Positions 14,514 through 36,346 of a stretch of 64,000 nt of DNA are shown here, in pieces. This stretch comes from Thermoplasmata archaeon. GTDB taxonomy: Archaea; Thermoplasmatota; E2; DHVEG-1. The notes beneath the pieces were generated by a model. The model did no database searches and was not told the DNA's origin. It saw nothing but the letters and a program-made list of their open reading frames with translations. The stretch lies in contig JAHWGK010000001.1 in NCBI GenBank assembly GCA_020054495.1, forward strand, positions 19,048 through 83,047, given 5' to 3'. A program made the translations under genes and the position numbers. How positions within the stretch are numbered: the stretch's first letter is position 1; every line of letters starts with the position of its first letter.

Positions 14514-15509
14514 ATGAGAATTGCTTTTAGAGTTGATGCTTCCAGAGAAATTGGAATCGGGCATCTAATGAGATGTCTTGCTTTATCAGAGGAATTACAA
14601 AAACAGGGTCATAAATGTTACATTTTATCAGAAACAAGCAAGGAAATAATAACTAATAAAATAAGTGAGTTCCAAGTTGAATTTTATAAGATAAATGAAT
14701 TAGCCGATGCGATTAAAATTTCAAAAGAAAACTGTATTGATTGGATTATTACAGATTGTTATAGTTTAAACTCAGAATATATTAAAAAATTAAAGGAGAC
14801 CTTCAAAGTTTTATCAATAGATGATAATGCTTTGATACATTATTATTCAGATGCAATAGTCAATCAAAATATCGGTGCAGATAAACTTGATTATTCAGCG
14901 GAGGAATATACTAGATTTTTCCTTGGATCTAAATATGTAATGATGAGAAATGAGCTGTTAAAAAGAAATGAGAAAAAAGAGAAAGACAAAGTTAAAAAAA
15001 TATTAATAACACTAGGAGGCGCAGATAAAGATAATTTTACATTAGAAATTTTAAAGATATTAAAAACAATAGATGAAAATGTCGAAGTTATAGCTGTTAT
15101 TGGTCCTTTTAACCCTTTTTACAATGTTCTCAAAGAATACGTAAACAAATCCAATTTAATGGTTAATTTAATTAAATCCCCTGAAAAAATGACAGACATT
15201 TATCTAGAGTCAGACATAGCTATTAGCGCAGGTGGAACATCTTGTTATGAACTTGCGTATTATGGCATTCCAAATCTAATTATAACTATTGCTGAAAATC
15301 AATTAAACATTGCAAAAGAGCTCGATAGACAAGGAATTAGCATATATCTTGGTGACCAGAAAGATGTAACAAGTGAAAAAATCAAAGAGAAGGTTAAAGA
15401 ATTAATAAACAATCATTCTTTAAGAAAAAGTATGAGCCAAAATGGAAGGAATCTGGTAGATGGACTGGGTAAAAAAAGAATTGTGGATTTTATGGAGAGT
15501 TATAATTGA
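14514..15509 (+). CDS. pseG: UDP-2,4-diacetamido-2,4,6-trideoxy-beta-L-altropyranose hydrolase, PseG
   Basis: MRIAFRVDASREIGIGHLMRCLALSEEL is the typical PseG N-terminus. GT-B-like C-terminal half (ITLGGADKDN, ISAGGTSCYE). Confidence 0.8.
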   Translation: MRIAFRVDASREIGIGHLMRCLALSEELQKQGHKCYILSETSKEIITNKISEFQVEFYKINELADAIKISKENCIDWIITDCYSLNSEYIKKLKETFKVLSIDDNALIHYYSDAIVNQNIGADKLDYSAEEYTRFFLGSKYVMMRNELLKRNEKKEKDKVKKILITLGGADKDNFTLEILKILKTIDENVEVIAVIGPFNPFYNVLKEYVNKSNLMVNLIKSPEKMTDIYLESDIAISAGGTSCYELAYYGIPNLIITIAENQLNIAKELDRQGISIYLGDQKDVTSEKIKEKVKELINNHSLRKSMSQNGRNLVDGLGKKRIVDFMESYN

Positions 15510-16543
15510 AGAAAGAAGTAAAAATCGGAAATAAAACAGTTGGAGATGGATACTCAACTTATATTATTGCAGAAATTGGAGCAAATCATAATTGTAATAT
15601 GAAAATTGCAAAAGAGCTAATCGATAAAGCAGCAGATGCACACGTTGATTCAGTTAAATTTCAAACATATAAAGCAGAAAAGCTTTATTCAAAAAAGGCA
15701 CCTCAGTTTTCAAAGGACGATATGAAACCATTTGACCTGATAAAATCAGTTGAGTTGCCAAGGAAATGGCATAAAGAACTATTTGAATATGCTGTTGAAA
15801 AAAATTTACATTTTATATCAAGCCCGTTTGATTTTGAAGCAGTTGATTTATTAAACGAAATTGGAGTTCCAGCATTTAAAATAGCTTCATTTGAAATCAC
15901 AGATCTTGAATTGTTGAAATATACAGCTGAAAAAAAGAAACCGATTATTCTATCAACAGGGATGGCAGATTTTGAGGAGATAAACGAGGCTTTAGAAGCA
16001 ATTATATCTACAGGAAATGATGATATTATTTTACTTCACTGTAACTCAATGTATCCTGCCCCCATTGAAATAGTTAATCTAAATGCAATACAGACGATGT
16101 CTCAAGAATTTAAGATACCTGTAGGTTTTTCCGATCATACTCTTGGAATTCATATACCTGTTGCAGCAGTTGCAAAAGGAGCGAAGTTAATAGAAAAACA
16201 TTTTACACTAGATAGGGCAATGAGCGGGCCTGATCATAGTTTTGCAATTGAACCACATGATCTTAAACAAATGGTTCAAAATATTAGGGATATTGAAAAG
16301 GCATTAGGAAATGGGAAAAAAGTTTTATCAAAAGCTGAAAAAGAGATGTATGAAAAAGGGAGAAGAAGCCTTATTGCTTCCCAGGATATTCCAAAAGGAA
16401 CAAAAATTACAAGAGAAATGATTATTATTAAACGGCCGGGTTATGGTATCAAACCAAAATTCTTAAACGATATAGTGGGAAAAATAGCTAAAAGAGACGT
16501 CGAGGAAGACCAATGGATCACATGGGAGGATATCAAAAAATAA
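15506..16543 (+). CDS. pseI: pseudaminic acid synthase, PseI (NeuB family with C-terminal SAF domain)
   Basis: YIIAEIGANHN, VDSVKFQTY, FKIASFE, GFSDHT, IEKHFTLDR, plus a SAF-like tail RRSLIASQDIPKGTKITREMIIIKRPGYGI. Confidence 0.9.
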   Translation: MKKEVKIGNKTVGDGYSTYIIAEIGANHNCNMKIAKELIDKAADAHVDSVKFQTYKAEKLYSKKAPQFSKDDMKPFDLIKSVELPRKWHKELFEYAVEKNLHFISSPFDFEAVDLLNEIGVPAFKIASFEITDLELLKYTAEKKKPIILSTGMADFEEINEALEAIISTGNDDIILLHCNSMYPAPIEIVNLNAIQTMSQEFKIPVGFSDHTLGIHIPVAAVAKGAKLIEKHFTLDRAMSGPDHSFAIEPHDLKQMVQNIRDIEKALGNGKKVLSKAEKEMYEKGRRSLIASQDIPKGTKITREMIIIKRPGYGIKPKFLNDIVGKIAKRDVEEDQWITWEDIKK

Positions 16544-28451: not shown

Positions 28452-29750
28452 CTAACTTTCGAATCCAAGAATTATATCTACTGCCTTTCGAGTTGCACCA
28501 TCTTTTGTTCTAGACAAATATTTATTAAAATTATTAACAAAAATTTTACGGTCTTTTTCAGGGTTTGACTTAAACTTCATTATCCATTTTTTAAGTTCAA
28601 TTGTATCTTTTGCTTGAGGTGAAAAACCAACCATCGCATAATCATCAACTAGATTTTTTAAATTTACATCTTTGTACAAAATTGTAGGTTTTCCAACTGA
28701 AAGAGCATCAAGTACTGCAGATCCTCGGCCCATATAAATTACTATATCGGAAATTGAAGATAGACTCATAGCTTGAGATTGATCAATAGTCCATCTTTTT
28801 TTATCATATTTATTAAGAAGGCTTTTAAGATGTTTAAGATCTTGTCTTGGATGCGGTTTAACAATCAAAAAAGAATCTGGAAAAGAAATTACAGTATCCA
28901 CAATTTCATGAAACGTAGCACTTAAGGTCTCTTTTGTAAAACTAGAAGCGGTCGGTCTAACTGTAAACAATAAAAAAATGGTTTTTTTAGAATCGTATAC
29001 TTTTTTCTTGGAACCATGCCTATCCCAATTATCTAGGATAAATTGAATCCACCAGTCATCATATCTTGGAATTCCAACCGCATGTGTTTTGTTTTTGTAT
29101 GTTTTGTTTCTTTTGTTTAGTAATTGTGTCATTTCTTTTGTGTTACATAGGATATCGTCTGCAAAACGTGTTGGAGTCTTTTGAGAATCTGATTTTTTTG
29201 ATATTGGAATATTATAGATGCAGGTTGCATGCGGGAATATTACTTCTCTAGCTCCCATTTTTCGTGCTATATCTACAATACGTTTTCTTGTACCTTTATC
29301 TTGAGATTCATCTTTGAGTAAAACATCAGGTTTGATTTTGTTCATCATTTTTTTATTTGGTGGGAATATTCTGAAAAAATATTCAAATATATGGTTTTCT
29401 TGAAATATCGTTAATTTTGATCGAATAGTTTTGTTAAATATTCTCATAAATATGTTAAAAATTCTTTTATGAACTGGTTTAAGAAAATCTTTTGTTTCAT
29501 ACCAGTTATCTACACAATTTAAAAGTAGATTCTTTAGGAATGTGTTTTCCTTTAGTATTGCATTTGAGTCTAAATGATTAAACAAAACGGATTGAGTAAT
29601 TTCAGGATAATTATTTTTTATATATTGACAAATAGGTAAGATCCAGTCTATTTCCCCCCAGGAGGTATCAATCAAAATTAGAATGTTTTTGACATTTCTG
29701 TGTTTTTCAGGATCTTTTTCCTTTGAATTGTACAATTTTTTAACACCCAA
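28452..29750 (-). CDS. GT-B-like transferase with HP motif (TagF/capsule-synthesis/sialyltransferase-like)
   Basis: FLIVKPHPRQD followed by SDIVIYMGRGSAVLDALSVGKPTILY. This layout is shared by CDP-glycerol glycerophosphotransferases and CMP-sugar transferases. Confidence 0.45.
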   Translation of the reverse strand: MGVKKLYNSKEKDPEKHRNVKNILILIDTSWGEIDWILPICQYIKNNYPEITQSVLFNHLDSNAILKENTFLKNLLLNCVDNWYETKDFLKPVHKRIFNIFMRIFNKTIRSKLTIFQENHIFEYFFRIFPPNKKMMNKIKPDVLLKDESQDKGTRKRIVDIARKMGAREVIFPHATCIYNIPISKKSDSQKTPTRFADDILCNTKEMTQLLNKRNKTYKNKTHAVGIPRYDDWWIQFILDNWDRHGSKKKVYDSKKTIFLLFTVRPTASSFTKETLSATFHEIVDTVISFPDSFLIVKPHPRQDLKHLKSLLNKYDKKRWTIDQSQAMSLSSISDIVIYMGRGSAVLDALSVGKPTILYKDVNLKNLVDDYAMVGFSPQAKDTIELKKWIMKFKSNPEKDRKIFVNNFNKYLSRTKDGATRKAVDIILGFES

Positions 29751-29916
29751 GGTAATATTAGATTTTGATGATGAATGGGTTCTTATTCAAAAGTGTTTTT
29801 GCTTACATTATTTTAGCGAATAATGATTTTATCAAGTACGAGTACTGTACGATATTATAATAACACAAGATTTTTGTATAAGTTACTGTTCACATACTGT
29901 AATTAAAGGTGATATT

Positions 29917-30963
29917 CTGCCAAAAAATGGTTATAATTCCGTAACACTACCAGATGCCTTAGTAAAAGATATAGACAATTTTGTAGATCAGAGTAATAAA
30001 TTGATTTCAAGCAGAAGTGAAGCGCTAAAATTAGCATGGATAGAGTATAAAGATAAACATATAGAAAATGTATTAGATAAATCTGTAAGAAAAGATACTT
30101 CCAAAGTGAAAATTGGCAATAAAGCTGTGGGGGATGGTGAACCTGTTTTTTTCATAGCAGAGATTGGCATTAATCATAATGGAGACATTGAAATAGCGAA
30201 AAAACTAATTGATATTGCAGTTGAAACGGGTTGTGATGCTGTTAAATTTCAAAAAAGAACAGTTGATATTGTTTATTCAAAAAAAGAGTTAGAAAGGCCA
30301 AGAGAAAACCCATTTGGTACGACTAACGGGGATCTTAAAAGAGGATTAGAATTCGGCGAGAAGGAATTTAGTGTAATTGATAAGTATTGTAAACAAAAAA
30401 ACATACTTTGGTTTGCATCCTGTTGGGACGAAAAAAGTGTAGATTTTATAGATCAGTTTAACCCACCATGCTATAAAATTGCATCTGCATGTTTGACAGA
30501 TGATAATTTATTAAAACATACAAAAGCCAAAGGTAAACCAATTATGTTATCAACTGGTCTTAGTACAATTGATGAAATCAAACATGCAGTCGATATTCTA
30601 GGAACAAAGGGTCTTATTATTTTACATTGCACATCAACATATCCTTCAGCACTAGATGAATTAAATTTAAAAGTAATACAGAATTTTAAAAAGAGGTTTA
30701 ATTGTCCAATTGGCTATAGTGGCCATGAAGTTGGTGTAACACCTAGTCTAATGGCGGCTGTAATGGGATCATGTGTAATTGAAAGACATATTACCCTAGA
30801 TAGGGCTATGTGGGGTAGTGATCAAGCTGCAAGTCTAGAACCTAATGGTATTAGAAGACTTGTAAGGGATATTGGACAAATATCTATTGTCAACAGTGAT
30901 GGAATAAAAAAAGTTTATGAGAGTGAATTACCGATTAAATCTAAGTTAAGGCGAGTTGGATGA
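29917..30963 (+). CDS. NeuB-family (sugar + PEP) synthase lacking the SAF domain, with an in-frame N-terminal ribbon-helix-helix-like segment
   Basis: NeuB core VFFIAEIGINHNGD, CDAVKFQKR, YKIASAC, GYSGHE, IERHITLDR. Upstream in the same frame: NSVTLPDALVKDIDNFVDQSNKLISSRSEALKLAWIEY. The 5' end is uncertain (CTG 29917, ATT 29914, TTG 30001 or GTG 30106). Confidence 0.75.
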   Translation: MPKNGYNSVTLPDALVKDIDNFVDQSNKLISSRSEALKLAWIEYKDKHIENVLDKSVRKDTSKVKIGNKAVGDGEPVFFIAEIGINHNGDIEIAKKLIDIAVETGCDAVKFQKRTVDIVYSKKELERPRENPFGTTNGDLKRGLEFGEKEFSVIDKYCKQKNILWFASCWDEKSVDFIDQFNPPCYKIASACLTDDNLLKHTKAKGKPIMLSTGLSTIDEIKHAVDILGTKGLIILHCTSTYPSALDELNLKVIQNFKKRFNCPIGYSGHEVGVTPSLMAAVMGSCVIERHITLDRAMWGSDQAASLEPNGIRRLVRDIGQISIVNSDGIKKVYESELPIKSKLRRVG

Positions 30964-31550
30964 AAAAAAAAATTGAAGAAATAATACAGGCGAATATAGA
31001 TACAACTACTAAACTATTGAAATCTGATTTGGAAAAAATCGAAGAAACAGTAAGTATTATAACTAAAGCTTTAAAGAATGGAAATAAGCTATTAATTTTT
31101 GGAAATGGTGGCAGCGCAGCCGATGCTCAGCATATCGCGGCTGAGTTTATCAACAAATTCAGATTTGATAGAGATCCTTTACCAGCAATTGCATTAACAA
31201 CAGATTCGTCCATATTAACTTGTATATCAAATGACTCTAGTTTTAGTCATATTTTTGAAAAACAAATAAAGGCTTTAGGAAACAAAGGCGACATCGCCCT
31301 AGCAATAACCACCAGTGATTCAATTTTAGAAGAAAATGCTCATTCATCAAATATTGGATTTGCACTTGCTGCATCTAGAGAAAAAGGAATAACAACTATC
31401 GGATTTGTTAGTGAGAAAAGTAAAACTATTTTAGATTACCTTGATCATTATATTAAAATTCCTTCATCGGATACGCCTAGAATTCAGGAGGCGCACATCT
31501 TAGTTGGTCATATTATTTGTGAACTTGTTGAACAGGAAATATTTCATTAA
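30960..31550 (+). CDS. gmhA: SIS-domain phosphoheptose isomerase (GmhA-like)
   Basis: LLIFGNGGSAADAQHIAAEF, LTTDSS, DIALAITTS, QEAHILVGHIIC. ATGA overlap with the upstream stop. Confidence 0.85.
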   Translation: MKKKIEEIIQANIDTTTKLLKSDLEKIEETVSIITKALKNGNKLLIFGNGGSAADAQHIAAEFINKFRFDRDPLPAIALTTDSSILTCISNDSSFSHIFEKQIKALGNKGDIALAITTSDSILEENAHSSNIGFALAASREKGITTIGFVSEKSKTILDYLDHYIKIPSSDTPRIQEAHILVGHIICELVEQEIFH

Positions 31551-31568
31551 ATATCTAGGTAGAAAAAT

Positions 31569-32135
31569 ATGATTAGTAAAAAAATAGCCGAGCCGATATT
31601 AATTCATGGGAGTAATTTCAGATTAGAGAGTTTTAATGATAAATATGTTACAGAAGAATATGTGAGTTGGTTAAGAGATAAAGAAATTGCAGAAGTAATC
31701 ATTAGTGCTAACCCAAATGTTACAATAGAAAATGTTCAAGATTATTGTCAAAAAATGATGGAAAGTAATGACAATTATTTTTTTGCTATTGTTATGAATG
31801 CAAATGATAAACATATAGGTAATCTAAGATTGGGGCCTATTGATTATGATCAACGAAGTTGTAGATATGGAATGATGATTGGTAATAAGGATTATCATAA
31901 CAAAGGAGTTGGATCAGAAGTAGTTAAGTTAGCCTTAGATTTTTGTTTTCAAACTCTAGGCATGCATAAAGTCTTTTTAGATGTTTTAGAGCATAATAAA
32001 CCTGCGATTAAAATCTATGAAAAGAATGGTTTTGAAACTGAAGGAATACAACGTGACCAATTTTACAAAGATAGTAAATATTACGACGTTAGAATAATGG
32101 GTATTATTAATCCAAAGGAGAGAAATACCAAATGA
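31569..32135 (+). CDS. GNAT-family N-acetyltransferase
   Basis: HNKGVGSEVV...IKIYEKNGFETEG GNAT core. Confidence 0.8.
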   Translation: MISKKIAEPILIHGSNFRLESFNDKYVTEEYVSWLRDKEIAEVIISANPNVTIENVQDYCQKMMESNDNYFFAIVMNANDKHIGNLRLGPIDYDQRSCRYGMMIGNKDYHNKGVGSEVVKLALDFCFQTLGMHKVFLDVLEHNKPAIKIYEKNGFETEGIQRDQFYKDSKYYDVRIMGIINPKERNTK

Positions 32136-32818
32136 GCCGGCATATAGCAATGATACCAGCGCGGATGGGGAGTGTTGGTTTCAAACATAAAAACAGGAAG
32201 TTTTTTGATTGTACTGCAGATTTTCTTGATGATGTTAAATGGTTTGATAGAGTAATTGTTTCAACAGATGACCCAGTTGTAAAAGAATACTCAGAAAAAA
32301 GGGGATACGACGTTCACATTCGTCCAGAAGAGTTAGCAGGCCCTGTAGTTTCAATTAAACAAGTTTTTGAAAGTGTAATAGAAGACATGAGCATCGAAAA
32401 AGATGATATTCTTTGGTTGTTCTACTTACCAATTCTGTATAAGAGTCATGCTGATTTTGAAGAATCTAAAAAAATAATTGAAAAACCTGATGTGAAAAGT
32501 CTTTGTTCTTTTATCAAAGCTGAGACTCATCCATATGTTTGTTGGAATTACGACTCTGATAAAAAAACTTTAACACAGTATATAGAAAACGATTGTTTTA
32601 GAAGGCAGGATCAGCCACTGGCATGGGAGCACCACCATTATCTTTATTGTTTCAAAGCAGAGGAGATATCTAAGCTCGATAATGAAATGATAAATAGCAA
32701 AACATATCCTGTTTTTTTAGACGAGGAAACGGCTGAGAATTTGCTTGAGATGGATGCACCTTCAGATTATGAAAAATGGAAAAAGAAATTTGGAGAAAAA
32801 GGAGTGATTAAAAAATGA
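32132..32818 (+). CDS. divergent acylneuraminate (CMP-ulosonic acid) cytidylyltransferase family protein
   Basis: IAMIPARMGSVGFKHKNRKF is a degenerate version of IPARGGSKGIPRKN. The size fits the family. Confidence 0.65.
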   Translation: MSRHIAMIPARMGSVGFKHKNRKFFDCTADFLDDVKWFDRVIVSTDDPVVKEYSEKRGYDVHIRPEELAGPVVSIKQVFESVIEDMSIEKDDILWLFYLPILYKSHADFEESKKIIEKPDVKSLCSFIKAETHPYVCWNYDSDKKTLTQYIENDCFRRQDQPLAWEHHHYLYCFKAEEISKLDNEMINSKTYPVFLDEETAENLLEMDAPSDYEKWKKKFGEKGVIKK

Positions 32819-34170
32819 GCGTAACAGTAAATATTAAAAAACCTGTTATTAAAAAATCAGATGAAATATACGCACGAGCAGAAAAAATAATACCTTCAGG
32901 AACACAAACTTTTAGTAAAGGTACAAATCAGTTTGTAAGAGGATTTGCGCCCAAATATATTGCAAAAGGTAAAGGATGTTATACATGGGATGTTGATGGG
33001 AACAAATATCTAGATATGATAATGGCATGTCATGCAAAAATTCTTGGTTATGCAGATCCAGATGTAAATCAAGCTGTAAAGGACCAACTTGACATAGGAA
33101 CCACATACAGTCTCCCACATGAATTAGAAGTAGATGTTACAGAGAAATTAATAGATGCAATACCCTGCGCAGAAGCTGCTCGTTTTGGAAAAAACGGAGC
33201 AGATGCAACATCTATTTGTGTCAGAGTTGCAAGAGCCAATACTAATCGTGACCATATCGCATACTGTGGCTACCATGGCTGGCATGACTGGTATATTGCA
33301 AATACAGACCTAAATTCAGGCATACCATATTTCAACCAGGAACTGGCACATTCTTTTGCATATAATCAGATAGAAACACTTGAGAACATATTCAATGAAT
33401 ATCCAGATGATATAGCAGTAGTAATAATGGAAGCACTTACAATACTTGAGCCAAAAGACAACTTCCTCCACAAAGTCAAAAAACTAACACATGACCATGG
33501 AGCGCTTCTAGCATTTGATGAGGTTATGACAGGGTTTAGATTCTCATTTGGAGGAGCACAAGAGCTAACTGGTGTAACACCAGATATTGCAGCCTTTGCA
33601 AAAGCAATCTCAAATGGCATACCGCTTTCTGCAATAGTCGGTAAAAAAGATTATATGTTCTGCCTTGACAAAACATTTTTCTCATTTACATATGGCGGGG
33701 ACTGTGTAGGACTTGCCGCAGCAAATGCATGCATTCCAAAGCTTAAGAGAGAAAAGGTATCAGAACACCTTCACAAAGTCGGAAAAGTATTAAAAGATGG
33801 ATACAACAAACTTGCAGAGCAACACGGTCTTGCAGATTACACCAATTGTATGGGATATCCCTGCAGAACAGTTATATCATTTGACGGGCAGGGAACATAT
33901 GATTCCCTTGAAATGAAATCATTCTTCCAACAAGAGATGATAAGACGAGGAGTTCTCTGGGCTGCATATCATGCACTAACCTGGTCACATAAACTGGAAG
34001 ATATCGAATACACACTAGCCTGCTATGACGAAGCACTTGCAGAATTCAAGAAAATTGTTGATAAAGGTGACAAAATCAAATATCACCTAGAAGGCCCACC
34101 AGTAGAACCAGTCTTCAGAAAAGTTGCAGATTTTATGTCATATACAATGAAAGATAAAAAGGTAAATTAG
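32815..34170 (+). CDS. class III PLP aminotransferase (glutamate-1-semialdehyde aminomutase-like)
   Basis: FGKNGADAT, FDEVMTGFRF, DIAAFAKAISNG (PLP Lys). Confidence 0.85.
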   Translation: MSVTVNIKKPVIKKSDEIYARAEKIIPSGTQTFSKGTNQFVRGFAPKYIAKGKGCYTWDVDGNKYLDMIMACHAKILGYADPDVNQAVKDQLDIGTTYSLPHELEVDVTEKLIDAIPCAEAARFGKNGADATSICVRVARANTNRDHIAYCGYHGWHDWYIANTDLNSGIPYFNQELAHSFAYNQIETLENIFNEYPDDIAVVIMEALTILEPKDNFLHKVKKLTHDHGALLAFDEVMTGFRFSFGGAQELTGVTPDIAAFAKAISNGIPLSAIVGKKDYMFCLDKTFFSFTYGGDCVGLAAANACIPKLKREKVSEHLHKVGKVLKDGYNKLAEQHGLADYTNCMGYPCRTVISFDGQGTYDSLEMKSFFQQEMIRRGVLWAAYHALTWSHKLEDIEYTLACYDEALAEFKKIVDKGDKIKYHLEGPPVEPVFRKVADFMSYTMKDKKVN

Positions 34171-34173
34171 CCA

Positions 34174-35016
34174 ATGAAGAAAATAGGAATCGTACAGGGG
34201 AGATTATCACCACCGGTAGATAATCAAATACAAGCGTTTCCAATATATACATGGAAAGATGAGTTTCCAATATATGAACAACTTGGGCTTTCCTGTATCG
34301 ATTGGTTATTCAAATATGAAACAGTTGCAGGTAACCCCTTAAGCTCTGATTCTGGGATTGAACAGATTAAAGAACTATGTCACAAGCACAATGTCAAGAT
34401 AAACGCAGTTTTATCTGATTATTTCATGGTTAAAAAACTGTTTGGCGAAGAAGCAGATGAATCGATTAAAACCCTGTATTTTTTAATTGACCAATGTAAC
34501 AAATGTGGCATACCAAACATTGTTCTTCCTTTTGTGGATAATGCTGCTATAAAAGCAGAAGAGGATAAAAAACAAATAGTCGAAAATCTAACAGAACATA
34601 TACGATATGCTAACAAGAAAAATATCAATATCATAATAGAAGGGAGTTTGGAACCTGTTGTGTTTAGAGATTTTATAATATCTTTCAAACCTCTTAATAT
34701 GAAAATTAACTATGACATGGGTAACAGCACTGGTCTTGGTTATAATCCTAGAGAAGAAATAAGATTATTAGGAGAGTTTTTCGGAAGTGTTCATATCAAA
34801 GATAAAATAAAAAGTGGCGGAACTGTACCACTAGGTACTGGTAATGTAGATTTCGAAACAGTTTTTAATGAGCTTAAAAATATTGATTATTCTGGAAATT
34901 TTGTTTTAGAAACAGCACGCCAGGATTTAGAAGAGACTAAATTTATAAATGATAGAGTAGAAACAATAAAAAATTATATTAATTTCGTAAAACCATATCT
35001 AGAGGGATTTGAATGA
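34174..35016 (+). CDS. xylose-isomerase-like TIM-barrel sugar(-phosphate) isomerase/epimerase
   Basis: 280 aa. Pattern ...IIIEGS..., NYDMGN, VHIKD, FVLE is typical of the AP_endonuc_2 fold. Confidence 0.65.
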   Translation: MKKIGIVQGRLSPPVDNQIQAFPIYTWKDEFPIYEQLGLSCIDWLFKYETVAGNPLSSDSGIEQIKELCHKHNVKINAVLSDYFMVKKLFGEEADESIKTLYFLIDQCNKCGIPNIVLPFVDNAAIKAEEDKKQIVENLTEHIRYANKKNINIIIEGSLEPVVFRDFIISFKPLNMKINYDMGNSTGLGYNPREEIRLLGEFFGSVHIKDKIKSGGTVPLGTGNVDFETVFNELKNIDYSGNFVLETARQDLEETKFINDRVETIKNYINFVKPYLEGFE

Positions 35017-35828
35017 GATTTAGTTTAAAAAATCAGATAGTTGTAATAACAGGTGGCGGTGGTTTCCTAGGTGGTAAGCATGCCGAAGCAATAGCAGAAA
35101 TAGAAGGCATTCCGATCCTGATAGACATTGATGAAGAAAGTGCGAAGGCTAAAGCAAAATCAATTGAGGAAGAATATGGCAGTGCAGCATTAGGTTACAA
35201 AGTAGATATTACATCTACCGAAGAAATTGAAACGCTTGCAGATGATCTTTTAAAAAGATTTGATAAAATTGATGTATTAATCAATAATGCAGCCATGAAT
35301 CCTCAGATGGATTATAAAACAGAGAAAGAAGAAACACGTTTAGAAAACTTCTCTCTTGAACGCTGGAATGATGAAGTTTCTGTTGGACTCACGGGTGCTT
35401 TTATTTGTAGTAAAATTATTGGTCCACATATGGCAAAAAGAGGTAAAGGTGTAATTTTGAATATTGCCTCTGACCTTGGACTTATAGCTCCAGATCAAAG
35501 AATATATCGGAAAAAAAACCTTTCAGACGACAAGCAGCCTGTTAAACCTGTTACTTACACTGTGGTAAAACATGGTCTTATAGGTTTAACACGTTACTTA
35601 GCAACTTATTGGTGTGATAAAGGAGTTCGTGTCAATGCTTTATGTCCAGGCGGAATATACAATAATCAACCTGAAGATTTCGTAGAAAAGCTTACGAATC
35701 TTATACCTCTCGGGAGAATGGCCAATCCCGACGATTACAAGGGAGCCATTCAGTTTATGTGTAGTGATGCCTCTATTTATATGACTGGTTCAATTGTTGT
35801 AATAGATGGCGGACGTACCTGCTGGTAA
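35013..35828 (+). CDS. short-chain dehydrogenase/reductase
   Basis: VITGGGGFLGG, NNAA, YTVVKHG (YxxxK), NALCPGG. Confidence 0.85.
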   Translation: MRFSLKNQIVVITGGGGFLGGKHAEAIAEIEGIPILIDIDEESAKAKAKSIEEEYGSAALGYKVDITSTEEIETLADDLLKRFDKIDVLINNAAMNPQMDYKTEKEETRLENFSLERWNDEVSVGLTGAFICSKIIGPHMAKRGKGVILNIASDLGLIAPDQRIYRKKNLSDDKQPVKPVTYTVVKHGLIGLTRYLATYWCDKGVRVNALCPGGIYNNQPEDFVEKLTNLIPLGRMANPDDYKGAIQFMCSDASIYMTGSIVVIDGGRTCW

Positions 35829-35884
35829 AAAGGATTAATTTTTATAGTTAAACATATAAAGACAAGATATTTTCCTATATCTCT

Positions 35885-36346
35885 ATGTATTCTAAGATAA
35901 AACTACTAGCATTAGATTTTGATGGGGTTATGACTGATAACAAGGTTATTGTGGATGAAAACGGTAAGGAATCAGTTGTTTGCAATAGAAGCGATGGAAT
36001 GGGTATAGAGAAAATAAAAAAGAGAGATATAGAAGTAATTGTTATTTCCAAAGAACAAAATAATGTTGTAAGAGCACGTTGTGATAAACTAAGGATTCCA
36101 TGTGTTCATGGTATAGATGACAAGTTATCAATTTTAAAAAAAGAAATAGAAAAAAGAAATCTAACTCCCGAAGAAGTTTGTTTTGTCGGAAATGATGTTA
36201 ACGATATTGAATGCATTAAATATGTTGGGATGGGTGTCGCTGTAAACAATGCTTATCCCGAGGTTAAAAAAATAGCAAAAATGGTTACAGAAAAAACCGG
36301 TGGTGAAGGAGCAGTAAGGGAAGTAATTGACAAAATATTATCCTAG
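35885..36346 (+). CDS. HAD-IIIA KdsC-family ulosonate-phosphate phosphatase
   Basis: LLALDFDGVMTDN, NRSDGMGI, VGNDVNDIE. The 153-aa size is typical of KdsC/KDN-9-P phosphatases. Confidence 0.8.
   Translation: MYSKIKLLALDFDGVMTDNKVIVDENGKESVVCNRSDGMGIEKIKKRDIEVIVISKEQNNVVRARCDKLRIPCVHGIDDKLSILKKEIEKRNLTPEEVCFVGNDVNDIECIKYVGMGVAVNNAYPEVKKIAKMVTEKTGGEGAVREVIDKILS

What the first reader, a model, noticed from the sequence alone, without database searches (positions are those of the whole stretch)
29827..30963. Ribbon-helix-helix DNA-binding module in frame with a SAF-less NeuB-type synthase (possible regulator-enzyme fusion)
The tracked ORF (TTG 30001) starts in the middle of a textbook RHH signature. 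The same frame is open back to 29827. It reads ...NSVTLPDALVKDIDNFVDQSNKLISSRSEALKLAWIEYKDKH: a beta-strand, helix A, and the SRSEA-type N-cap of helix B, as in the NikR/CopG/Arc families. About 15 codons later, with no stop, the NeuB core begins (VKIGNKAVGDGEPVFFIAEIGINHNGD; compare PseI at 15506, MKKEVKIGNKTVGDGYSTYIIAEIGANHN). The protein ends at 30963 just after the TIM-barrel motifs, roughly 60 aa short of PseI. It therefore lacks the C-terminal SAF domain that PseI keeps. Total length from CTG 29917 (348 aa) roughly equals a normal NeuB, as if an N-terminal RHH had replaced the C-terminal SAF. Enzyme-RHH fusions are known (PutA), but I know of none for the NeuB family. Such a fusion could make the first enzyme of the operon its own repressor.
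Basis: partly seen in the sequence, partly recalled or inferred. Interest (0 to 1): 0.8.

Follow-up and report, generated by a model that had tools for sequence, protein, structure and literature searches.

The report
DNA-binding domain fused to archaeal sugar synthase
An archaeal enzyme that makes a sialic-acid-like sugar carries a small DNA-binding domain at its front end, and conserved matching DNA sites sit on its own promoter, so the enzyme most likely also switches its own operon off.

Summary
The frame of the tracked ORF (TTG 30001) is open back to 29827. The real gene is 29917-30963 and encodes 348 aa: a ribbon-helix-helix (RHH) domain (residues 1-47), a variable linker (48-62) and a NeuB-type TIM barrel with no SAF domain.

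At least 13 metagenomic loci keep the two parts in one frame. The RHH part is under purifying selection (dN/dS about 0.1-0.25). The start aligns with ATG, GTG or TTG in the other loci, always 3-6 nt after a GGTGA Shine-Dalgarno. Only this window has CTG there.

The RHH assignment rests on three results. Standalone archaeal relatives pass Pfam RHH_1. A profile hits the NikR RHH domain (E = 9e-5). An AlphaFold model (pLDDT 91) has only RHH proteins among its top structural matches, though those E-values are not significant.

New here: a near-palindromic 7-mer, TAC(A/T)GTA, is about 80-fold enriched upstream of the fused genes. It sits at fixed positions: a pair 11 bp apart upstream of the TATA box, and one site between the TATA box and the Shine-Dalgarno. 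The three non-fused loci examined (two near-identical) lack both the RHH and the motif.

Best reading: a PutA-like trigger enzyme that represses its own eight-gene sugar operon in a Thermoplasmatota archaeon. DNA binding is inferred, not shown. SAF-less NeuB is already known, and the RHH did not replace the SAF domain.

The parts
29917..30963 (+). Full coding sequence of the RHH-NeuB fusion (348 aa plus stop). The start codon here is CTG.
   Evidence: Open frame. Full-length orthologues of 342-351 aa, plus P0001 at 334 aa with an internal deletion. The start position aligns with ATG/GTG/TTG after GGTGA in 12 other loci.
29917..30057 (+). Ribbon-helix-helix domain, residues 1-47: strand about 8-12 (SVTLP), helix A 13-25, SSRSE turn, helix B from 33.
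   Evidence: Profile hits to NikR, EndoAI and HicB3 RHH domains. Standalone relatives are Pfam RHH_1. AF2 pLDDT 90.8, and Foldseek top hits are all RHH proteins. dN/dS 0.08-0.25.
30058..30102 (+). Flexible interdomain linker, residues 48-62.
   Evidence: Variable in sequence and length among orthologues. pLDDT below 50 for residues 50-58. dN/dS near or above 1. No conserved internal start.
30103..30960 (+). NeuB-type TIM-barrel synthase domain without SAF. The catalytic Glu and metal-binding His residues are kept (E82, H270, E289, H291 in the 348-aa numbering).
   Evidence: Pfam NeuB 256.9 bits, no SAF. Best solved relative is the 290-aa SAF-less 6ncs, E 3e-44. H270, E289 and H291 are invariant and E82 nearly invariant in 40 relatives. 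pLDDT above 90.
29908..29913 (+). Shine-Dalgarno GGTGAT, 3 nt before the start codon.
   Evidence: GGTG(A/G) at -9 to -11 in 11 of 13 fused loci.
29884..29901 (+). Proximal candidate operator: TACTGTT-caca-TACTGTA, two 7-mers 11 bp apart, at -33 and -22 from the start, between the TATA-like box and the Shine-Dalgarno.
   Evidence: A TACWGTA 7-mer at -20 to -26 in 10 of 13 fused loci. One-mismatch match to the 18-bp dyad pattern, the best in 64 kb.
29832..29849 (+). Distal candidate operator: TCAAGTA-cgag-TACTGTA, two 7-mers 11 bp apart, at -85 and -74.
   Evidence: A distal TACWGTA site 59-94 bp upstream of the start in 10 of 13 fused loci. A second exact 7-mer 11 bp away occurs in four of them, for example TACAGTACATGTACTGTA in L025. 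Second-best dyad match in the window, 2 mismatches.
29871..29882 (+). Candidate archaeal TATA box (TTTTTGTATAAG). An alternative is TATTATAATAA at 29853-29863.
   Evidence: MAFFT aligns it with the conserved TATTTAAA/TATATATA block at -41 to -46 in the orthologues. This is an inference; no transcription start site data exist.
30960..36346 (+). Rest of the presumed operon: SIS_2 isomerase (30960-31550), GNAT (31569-32135), cytidylyltransferase (32132-32818), class-III aminotransferase (32815-34170), xylose-isomerase-like TIM barrel (34174-35016), SDR (35013-35828), HAD phosphatase (35885-36346).
   Evidence: ORFs on the same strand, overlapping or closely spaced. Pfam assignments.

Best explanation
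The gene 29917-30963 encodes a bifunctional 'trigger enzyme' of a Thermoplasmatota archaeon. An N-terminal CopG/NikR-type ribbon-helix-helix domain is tethered by a flexible linker of about 15 residues to a catalytically intact, SAF-less NeuB-type synthase that condenses PEP with a sugar. Shown: the fusion, its conservation, the RHH fold assignment, the intact active-site residues, and the conserved promoter motif. Inferred: the protein dimerises through the RHH beta-ribbon, and each RHH dimer reads one near-palindromic TAC(A/T)GTA element. Two elements 11 bp apart, upstream of the TATA box, form a distal operator. One element (two in this window) between the TATA box and the Shine-Dalgarno covers the predicted transcription start. 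Occupancy would block TBP/TFB/RNA polymerase and so repress the protein's own eight-gene ulosonic-acid operon. The distal and proximal sites are 52 or 61-63 bp apart, which is 5 or 6 helical turns. This suggests cooperative binding or looping through oligomerisation of the enzyme domain. Substrate or product bound in the barrel may modulate DNA binding; this is the most speculative step.
For: Fusion and start. Eleven full-length database orthologues exist, and the fused loci fetched have one uninterrupted frame. The start aligns with ATG (8 loci), GTG (1) or TTG (2) after GGTGA. No internal start is conserved. dN/dS is 0.08-0.25 for the RHH, 0.09-0.11 for NeuB, and about 1 or more for the linker.

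RHH fold. A profile of the domain finds standalone archaeal proteins of 44-90 aa. Four of these pass Pfam RHH_1, and NCBI names some 'ribbon-helix-helix domain-containing protein [Archaeoglobus]'. The widened profile hits NikR 2bj1 at E 9.3e-5, then EndoAI, HicB3 and E. coli NikR. hhalign against E. coli NikR gives 1.8e-4. The AF2 model has pLDDT 90.8, and its top Foldseek matches are ParD2, MazE, HicB, NikR and the CopG-DNA complex, at TM 0.63-0.71 and rmsd 1.1-1.7 A.

Operator. TACWGTA occurs 24 times in 1,762 bp upstream of fused genes and 6 times in the other 35.7 kb of the same loci, an 81-fold enrichment. Positions are fixed at -20/-22, with TATA-like boxes at -41 to -46 and distal sites mostly at -81 to -94, while the rest of the intergenic DNA is diverged. 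In the 64-kb window the 18-bp dyad matches with 2 or fewer mismatches only at 29832 and 29884.

Specificity. Three non-fused loci were examined. L030 and L031 have identical upstream DNA and encode P0012 (79% identical over its aligned part). L032 encodes P0015 (76%). None has an upstream RHH or the motif. L019 keeps a close RHH (dN 0.17) and the motif although its NeuB part is distant (dN 0.45). This is the only RHH of this subfamily in the window.

Sensor hint. P0121/L022 is an RHH fused to a NeuB-like domain that has lost both metal-binding histidines, H215 to A and H236 to R (ligand roles from PMC11339185).

Precedent. PutA carries an N-terminal RHH and is an autogenous repressor (PMC5293562).
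Against: No experiment exists; DNA binding and repression are inferred from co-occurrence. Only three non-fused control loci (two distinct sequences) could be examined. The window's own sequence does not reach Pfam's RHH_1 cut-off (13.6 against 20.5 bits). Foldseek E-values are not significant for so short a domain. The start codon in this window is CTG, and UUG-to-CUG switches are very rare (1 of 2,468; PMC5622118), so this allele may make little or no RHH-bearing protein. L022 has no motif nearby, L028 lacks the proximal site, and L026 has a one-mismatch proximal site. The TATA box in this window is degenerate. The transcription start site is unknown.
Confidence: 0.65

Rival explanations
1. 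The RHH is only a dimerisation or stability module for an enzyme that lacks the dimer-stabilising SAF domain. It does not bind DNA, and some other regulator uses the upstream motif.
For: RHH is an obligate dimer fold. The SAF domain is thought to stabilise the NeuB dimer (PMC8208679). DNA binding has not been tested.
Against: Hundreds of SAF-less relatives do without any extra domain, and so does the solved 6ncs. The nearest relatives of the domain are standalone CopG-type proteins. The motif is a 7-bp near-palindrome with 11-bp spacing, which is what RHH dimers typically read (own knowledge of the Arc and CopG operators). It travels with the RHH, not with the enzyme subtype.
Confidence: 0.12
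2. In this particular genome the RHH is no longer made. The TTG-to-CTG change at 29917 killed the start, translation begins at TTG 30001 or GTG 30106, and the upstream codons are a recent relic. The family-level function stays as in the best explanation.
For: Only the window (and the identical Logan contig L001) has CTG. The 97%-identical L023 has TTG, and all other loci have ATG, GTG or TTG. CUG starts are very rare in prokaryotes (PMC5622118). Against L023 the RHH shows 2 non-synonymous and 0 synonymous changes. Gene callers chose TTG 30001.
Against: The 58 upstream codons are intact in a 32% GC genome. The Shine-Dalgarno and both operators are intact. Neither TTG 30001 nor GTG 30106 has a Shine-Dalgarno. 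Starting at 30001 would give a protein with a useless half RHH. Two substitutions are too few to show relaxed selection. CTG preceded by a strong Shine-Dalgarno can initiate at low level (own knowledge).
Confidence: 0.15
3. The single frame is an artefact: an assembly or sequencing error, or a missed stop or frameshift, joins a small regulator gene to the enzyme gene.
For: None beyond the non-canonical start codon. All data come from metagenome assemblies.
Against: Independent assemblies from JGI, ENA, NCBI and Logan all show one uninterrupted frame, with linkers of different sequence but compatible length.
Confidence: 0.02

Closest known systems
Trifunctional PutA (proline utilisation A) of Escherichia coli and other proteobacteria
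   Same: An N-terminal RHH DNA-binding domain is fused to a metabolic enzyme, and the protein is the autogenous repressor of its own operon (PMC5293562). It is the model example of a trigger enzyme.
   Different: The enzyme is different (flavin PRODH/P5CDH against a PEP-condensing NeuB barrel). PutA is bacterial and catabolic; this protein is archaeal and sits in a biosynthetic glycan pathway. The PutA switch works through membrane binding after flavin reduction, and nothing similar is evident here. There is no sequence relationship beyond the RHH fold.
NikR (nickel-responsive regulator), e.g. Pyrococcus horikoshii 2bj1
   Same: It is the best solved-structure match of the RHH profile (E 9.3e-5). 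Its N-terminal RHH is followed by a C-terminal ligand-binding and oligomerisation domain that controls binding to a two-part operator.
   Different: The NikR C-terminal domain is a small ACT-like metal sensor, not an enzyme. NikR operators are two half-sites about 16 bp apart (own knowledge), whereas here 7-mers lie 11 bp apart and a second site lies 5-6 helical turns away.
SAF-less NeuB-family synthases (about 288 aa; PDB 6ncs; the 'ENV' group of PMC8208679)
   Same: The enzyme part is 68-79% identical to hundreds of such proteins. It has the same conserved catalytic residues and C-terminal KLRR tail, and the same neighbours (SIS, CTP_transf_3).
   Different: Those proteins have no N-terminal domain. 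The two distinct sequences checked have no TACWGTA motif upstream.
Standalone archaeal CopG-family RHH proteins (e.g. P0132/P0138 of Archaeoglobus; P0126, P0130, P0133)
   Same: They share the MPKxGF...ITLPDxL..ID......SRSE.IK.A signature over the whole domain, including the N-terminal MPK.
   Different: They are 44-90 aa with no enzyme attached. Their targets are unknown.

Membership tests
Ribbon-helix-helix (CopG/Arc/MetJ/NikR) superfamily, Pfam RHH_1 PF01402 | Score at or above the curated Pfam cut-off (20.5 bits) | tested here: not met
   The window segment scores 13.6 bits, E 0.069. Only 1 of 11 fused N-termini lists RHH_1 at E of 1 or less. Four standalone relatives found by the domain profile do pass, at 21.1-26.0 bits.
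Ribbon-helix-helix (CopG/Arc/MetJ/NikR) superfamily, Pfam RHH_1 PF01402 | Detectable homology to RHH domains of solved structure | tested here: met
   Profile A5 against PDB: NikR 2bj1 E 9.3e-5 over RHH residues 7-49, then EndoAI, HicB3 and E. coli NikR. hhalign against the E. coli NikR N-terminus gives E 1.8e-4.
Ribbon-helix-helix (CopG/Arc/MetJ/NikR) superfamily, Pfam RHH_1 PF01402 | Strand, helix A, turn with S/T/N cap, helix B topology in about 45 residues | tested here: met
   AF2 pLDDT 90.8, with an extended segment 1-12 and helices 13-25 and 33-52. The best Foldseek PDB matches are RHH proteins at rmsd 1.1-1.7 A over 40-46 residues, although the E-values are not significant. The SSRSE cap is invariant or nearly so.
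Ribbon-helix-helix (CopG/Arc/MetJ/NikR) superfamily, Pfam RHH_1 PF01402 | Homodimer with a two-stranded antiparallel beta-ribbon inserted in the DNA major groove | not testable with these tools
Indirect support: the promoter carries a conserved 7-bp near-palindrome.
NeuB family (PF03102), nonulosonic/ulosonic acid synthases | NeuB TIM-barrel domain above the Pfam cut-off | tested here: met
   256.9 bits against a 22.1 cut-off, covering profile positions 1-240 of 241.
NeuB family (PF03102), nonulosonic/ulosonic acid synthases | Catalytic Glu residues and the two metal-binding His (E25, E234, H215, H236 of N. meningitidis NeuB) | tested here: met
   AEIG, SGH and ERH are conserved. H270, E289 and H291 are invariant and E82 nearly invariant among 40 relatives. 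The numbering was transferred through the P0121-2wqp alignment. Residue roles come from PMC8208679 and PMC11339185.
NeuB family (PF03102), nonulosonic/ulosonic acid synthases | C-terminal SAF (antifreeze-like) domain with the substrate-binding Arg314 | tested here: not met
   No SAF hit even at E of 1 or less. The protein ends about 20 residues after the barrel. The paralogue at 15506-16543 has a SAF domain.
N-acetylneuraminate synthase (TIGR03569) or pseudaminic acid synthase (TIGR03586) equivalogs | Score at or above the NCBIfam equivalog cut-off | tested here: not met
   247.9 against 399.65 bits and 203.2 against 340.25 bits. It is a distinct subfamily, and its sugar substrate is unknown.
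Trigger enzymes (enzyme that is also a transcription factor, PutA type) | One polypeptide with an intact enzyme domain and a DNA-binding domain | tested here: met
Trigger enzymes (enzyme that is also a transcription factor, PutA type) | Demonstrated sequence-specific DNA binding and control of its own or pathway genes, modulated by the metabolic state | not testable with these tools
   There is only comparative evidence: the operator-like TACWGTA sites co-occur with the RHH.

The most novel reading that the evidence does not exclude
The RHH-NeuB proteins are a previously undescribed family of archaeal sugar-sensing transcription factors. The NeuB barrel acts as both enzyme and ligand sensor. 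Substrate or product occupancy changes oligomerisation and so changes cooperative, looped binding to TACWGTA operators that bracket the TATA box. This would give direct metabolite feedback on cell-surface glycan synthesis. Derivatives such as P0121, which have lost the metal-binding histidines, would be pure regulators evolved from the enzyme.
Probability: 0.35. Interest if true: 0.75.

Novelty: new variant of a known kind. Interest (0 to 1): 0.62.

Why it matters
Almost nothing is known about how archaea regulate the synthesis of sialic-acid-like surface sugars. Trigger enzymes are well documented in bacteria but hardly at all in archaea. This case offers a compact, directly testable system: one protein, one 166-bp promoter with a defined 7-bp element, and natural variants. 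The variants include ATG, TTG and CTG starts, a different NeuB subtype with the same RHH, and a catalytically dead derivative. It also corrects the annotation, because gene callers start this gene at TTG 30001, in the middle of the DNA-binding domain. The family is rare (about a dozen metagenomic sequences), so its impact would be conceptual rather than broad.

Tried and rejected
1. The 63-aa N-terminus alone in the word-indexed protein search found nothing.
2. The narrow profile A3 against PDB gave no RHH hits. Only the widened profile A5 did.
3. A3 against GTDB species genomes found no relative, so no isolate or representative genome with the fusion is known.
5. In the full-length monomer model the RHH part reaches only pLDDT 60-68.
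6. tRNA and Rfam scans of the window found nothing.
7. Literature searches for RHH together with NulO-synthase terms returned no relevant paper. The 'NeuB' hits were names such as Neubauer.
8. Toxin-antitoxin reading (RHH antitoxin with the GNAT at 31569): rejected. The RHH is fused to the enzyme, the GNAT lies two genes away inside a sugar pathway, and the HicB-like hit covers only the RHH part.
9. The out-of-frame ATG at 29927 gives MVIIP-stop and has no orthologous support.
10. The other TACTGTA copies in the window (2797, 10107, 10421, 28890, 49214, 49327) are single, number what chance predicts (8 found, 6.2 expected), and are not arranged as dyads.
Full report
1. The observation

Stops TAA TGA lie at 29821-29826, and the frame then runs open to the TGA at 30961-30963. 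The mechanical ORF list starts at TTG 30001, because there is no in-frame ATG, GTG or TTG between 29827 and 30001. An independent gene call on the identical Logan contig also chose TTG 30001. That start lies inside the conserved string NKLISSRSEALKLAW.

Pfam finds a full NeuB domain (2.3e-76) and no SAF domain. The second NeuB paralogue of the window, at 15506-16543, has both NeuB and SAF. NCBIfam places the protein below the equivalog cut-offs for both N-acetylneuraminate synthase and pseudaminic acid synthase. The N-terminal 63 residues alone give only weak but concordant hits: RHH_1 at 0.069, the RHH part of HicB-like antitoxins at 0.068, and NikR at 0.063.

2. The fusion is real and conserved

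A search of 5.8 billion proteins returned eleven proteins of 334-351 aa, 63-93% identical, that cover the whole 348 aa. Most begin MPKxG(Y/F)xx(V/I)TLPDxLVxDIDxFVxxSNKLISSRSEALKLAW. Hundreds of proteins of about 288 aa, 68-79% identical, lack the extension.

I fetched DNA for 12 fused loci besides the window, from JGI, ENA, NCBI and Logan assemblies. Two of them are cut by contig ends. Every one has a single uninterrupted frame.

The codon aligned with 29917 is ATG in eight loci, GTG in L019, and TTG in L018 and L023. A GGTG(A/G) Shine-Dalgarno lies at -9 to -11 in 11 of the 13 fused loci counting the window. The window has CTG at this position, as does the identical Logan contig L001 (0 mismatches in 6,591 bp). 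L023 is 97% identical in protein and has TTG.

The domain boundary has no conserved internal start and no Shine-Dalgarno. GTG 30106 is GTA or GTT in most orthologues.

Pairwise dN/dS against the window is 0.08-0.25 for the RHH codons, 0.09-0.11 for the NeuB codons, and about 0.4 to above 2 for the 15-residue linker. So the N-terminal segment is a translated domain under selection, joined by a free linker.

3. What the N-terminal domain is

A profile of the eleven N-termini was searched against 1.84 billion representative proteins. It found 17 hits: further fusions, and standalone proteins of 44-120 aa with the same MPKxGF...ITLPD...SRSE signature. Four of the standalone proteins pass Pfam's RHH_1 cut-off, and others hit RHH_1 or RHH_8 just below it. 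NCBI names two of them 'ribbon-helix-helix domain-containing protein [Archaeoglobus]'.

A profile of fusions plus standalone relatives hits the RHH domain of Pyrococcus horikoshii NikR (2bj1) at E 9.3e-5. EndoAI, HicB3 and the E. coli and H. pylori NikR proteins follow. The narrower profile had found none of these.

AlphaFold on that alignment gives pLDDT 90.8, with an extended N-terminal segment and helices 13-25 and 33-52. The best Foldseek PDB matches are all RHH proteins: ParD2, MazE-mt1, HicB, NikR, the CopG-DNA complex, CdbA, PrpA and Arc. TM scores are 0.6-0.7 and rmsd is 1.1-1.7 A. The E-values are not significant for so short a query. The dimer could not be modelled. I regard the RHH assignment as secure.

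4. The enzyme part

H270, E289 and H291 are invariant and E82 nearly invariant across 40 relatives. The numbering was transferred through the alignment. E82 and E289 correspond to the catalytic E25 and E234 of N. meningitidis NeuB, as named in PMC8208679. H270 and H291 correspond to the metal ligands H215 and H236, as named in PMC11339185. The barrel is modelled at pLDDT above 90.

The best solved relative is 6ncs, itself a 290-aa SAF-less enzyme. SAF-less NeuB sequences have also been described in environmental organisms (PMC8208679). The absence of SAF is therefore not new. Because the closest non-fused relatives also lack SAF, the RHH was added to a SAF-less enzyme rather than exchanged for the SAF domain.

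5. Host and context

The window's GlmS is 74-80% identical to those of Thermoplasmatales/Thermoplasmatota archaeon MAGs. GC content is about 32%.

The gene is the first of a same-strand, tightly packed set. After it come an SIS_2 isomerase whose start overlaps the NeuB stop, a GNAT, a cytidylyltransferase, a class-III aminotransferase, a xylose-isomerase-like TIM barrel, an SDR and a HAD phosphatase. This looks like a pathway to a CMP-activated N-acyl-amino ulosonic acid made from a phosphorylated sugar. The product is unknown.

The fused orthologues sit in similar clusters with SIS_2 and CTP_transf_3 neighbours. In most loci they lie directly after a non-coding region of 70-380 bp.

6. The new evidence: operator-like sites

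The intergenic DNA of the fused loci is otherwise diverged, but it shares five blocks:
- a distal pair of 7-mers, TAC(A/T)GTA, 11 bp apart. Examples are TACAGTACATGTACTGTA in L025 and TTACAGTATATATACTGTAA in L020, both perfect palindromes.
- a TATA-like box at -41 to -46.
- a proximal TACTGTA at -20 to -22.
- the GGTGA Shine-Dalgarno.
- the start codon.

The 7-mer occurs 24 times in the 1,762 bp upstream of fused genes and 6 times in the remaining 35.7 kb of the same loci, an 81-fold enrichment. The flanking bases extend it towards RTACWGTAY.

In the window the sites are TCAAGTA-cgag-TACTGTA (29832-29849) and TACTGTT-caca-TACTGTA (29884-29901). These are the only matches to the 18-bp dyad pattern with two or fewer mismatches in 64 kb. 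Single 7-mers elsewhere in the window are at chance level.

The distance from the distal to the proximal site is 52 bp in the window and L023, and 61-63 bp in six other loci. That equals five or six helical turns.

Three non-fused loci were examined. L030 and L031 have identical upstream DNA and encode P0012 (79% identical over its aligned part). L032 encodes P0015 (76%). None has an upstream RHH or the motif.

L019 has a NeuB part that is much more distant (dN 0.45) but an RHH that is close (dN 0.17), and it keeps the motif. No other member of this RHH subfamily is encoded in the window.

A 7-bp near-palindrome repeated at one helical turn is what dimers of RHH proteins such as Arc and CopG read (my own knowledge).

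7. Mechanism

The best-supported model is a PutA-like trigger enzyme. PutA is an N-terminal RHH fused to an enzyme and acts as an autogenous repressor (PMC5293562).

In this model RHH dimers occupy the TACWGTA elements on both sides of the TATA box. The proximal site overlaps the expected transcription start, so the protein represses its own operon. The enzyme domain supplies higher-order oligomerisation and possibly metabolite control.

The fusion, the fold, the intact active site and the conserved motif are shown. Binding, repression, looping and ligand control are inferred.

P0121/L022 hints that the barrel can act as a sensor. It is an RHH fused to a NeuB-like domain in which both metal ligands are replaced (H215 to A, H236 to R) and E25 is replaced by D.

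8. Caveats

The CTG start is unusual. UUG-to-CUG switches were seen once in 2,468 ancestral UUG starts (PMC5622118). This allele may therefore express the fusion poorly, or may be a recent loss of the RHH form. Two non-synonymous and no synonymous differences from L023 in the RHH are too few to decide.

Only two distinct non-fused controls were available. L022 lies in mid-operon without the motif. L028 lacks the proximal site, and L026 has a one-mismatch version. The TATA box in the window is degenerate, with a second candidate at 29853-29863. All sequences come from metagenomes, and none of the 185,579 GTDB species representatives carries the domain.

9. Novelty

RHH-enzyme fusions (PutA) and RHH-sensor fusions (NikR) are known, and so are SAF-less NeuB enzymes. 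I found no paper linking an RHH with a NulO or ulosonic-acid synthase.

This is a new variant of a known kind: an archaeal, biosynthetic RHH trigger enzyme with a defined candidate operator. Interest is moderate to high for archaeal gene regulation and glycobiology. It is limited by the rarity of the family and by the absence of experimental data.

Noticed in passing
window 29917-29919; L023 953-955: The start codon is CTG in the window (and in the identical Logan contig L001) but TTG in the 97%-identical JGI contig L023. All other orthologues have ATG, GTG or TTG. This is a rare UUG-to-CUG switch that may lower or abolish synthesis of the RHH-bearing form in this strain.
   Followed up: partly
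L022 397-1389 (protein P0121, 331 aa): This is an RHH fused to a NeuB-like domain in which both metal-binding histidines and one catalytic glutamate are replaced (H215 to A, H236 to R, E25 to D in N. meningitidis numbering). It is probably a catalytically dead, regulator-only derivative. It lies in mid-operon and has no TACWGTA motif nearby.
   Followed up: partly
L019 718-1770 (364-codon open frame; 351 aa from the GTG start): The RHH is close to the window's (dN 0.17) and the promoter carries the same TACWGTA sites, but the NeuB subfamily is clearly different (dN 0.45). The RHH-plus-operator module seems to have been kept or moved across enzyme subtypes.
   Followed up: partly
window 30960-31550; protein P0074 (486 aa): The SIS_2 gene start overlaps the NeuB stop (ATGA). 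One relative, P0074, is a NeuB-SIS fusion protein. This points to a tight functional pairing of sugar-phosphate isomerase and synthase.
   Followed up: no
window 29917-36346: The eight-gene set (NeuB-like, SIS_2, GNAT, CTP_transf_3, class-III aminotransferase, xylose-isomerase-like TIM barrel, SDR, HAD phosphatase) looks like an undescribed route to a CMP-activated N-acyl-amino ulosonic acid. The synthase is below the NCBIfam cut-offs for both NeuB and PseI.
   Followed up: partly
window 30901-30960 (residues 329-348): The C-terminal tail GDGxKKVYxSExPIxxKLRR is nearly invariant in all SAF-less relatives. It might supply the arginine that the SAF domain (R314) gives in classical NeuB.
   Followed up: no
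window 15506-16543: The same 64-kb glycosylation island holds a second, classical NeuB/PseI-type synthase with a SAF domain. It passes the NCBIfam cut-offs for both NeuB_NnaB (400.1 bits) and PseI (354.4 bits). The organism therefore probably makes at least two different ulosonic acids.
   Followed up: no
window 28452-29750 (-): A divergently transcribed 432-aa protein with weak glycosyl/glycerophosphotransferase similarity shares the 166-bp intergenic region, so the distal operator could also affect its promoter. The divergent arrangement is seen only in the window and L023. Where gene calls are available for the other orthologues, the upstream gene is on the same strand.
   Followed up: partly
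window 29927-29944: An out-of-frame ATG 10 nt after the CTG start opens only a 5-codon ORF (MVIIP-stop). No orthologous support was seen.
   Followed up: yes
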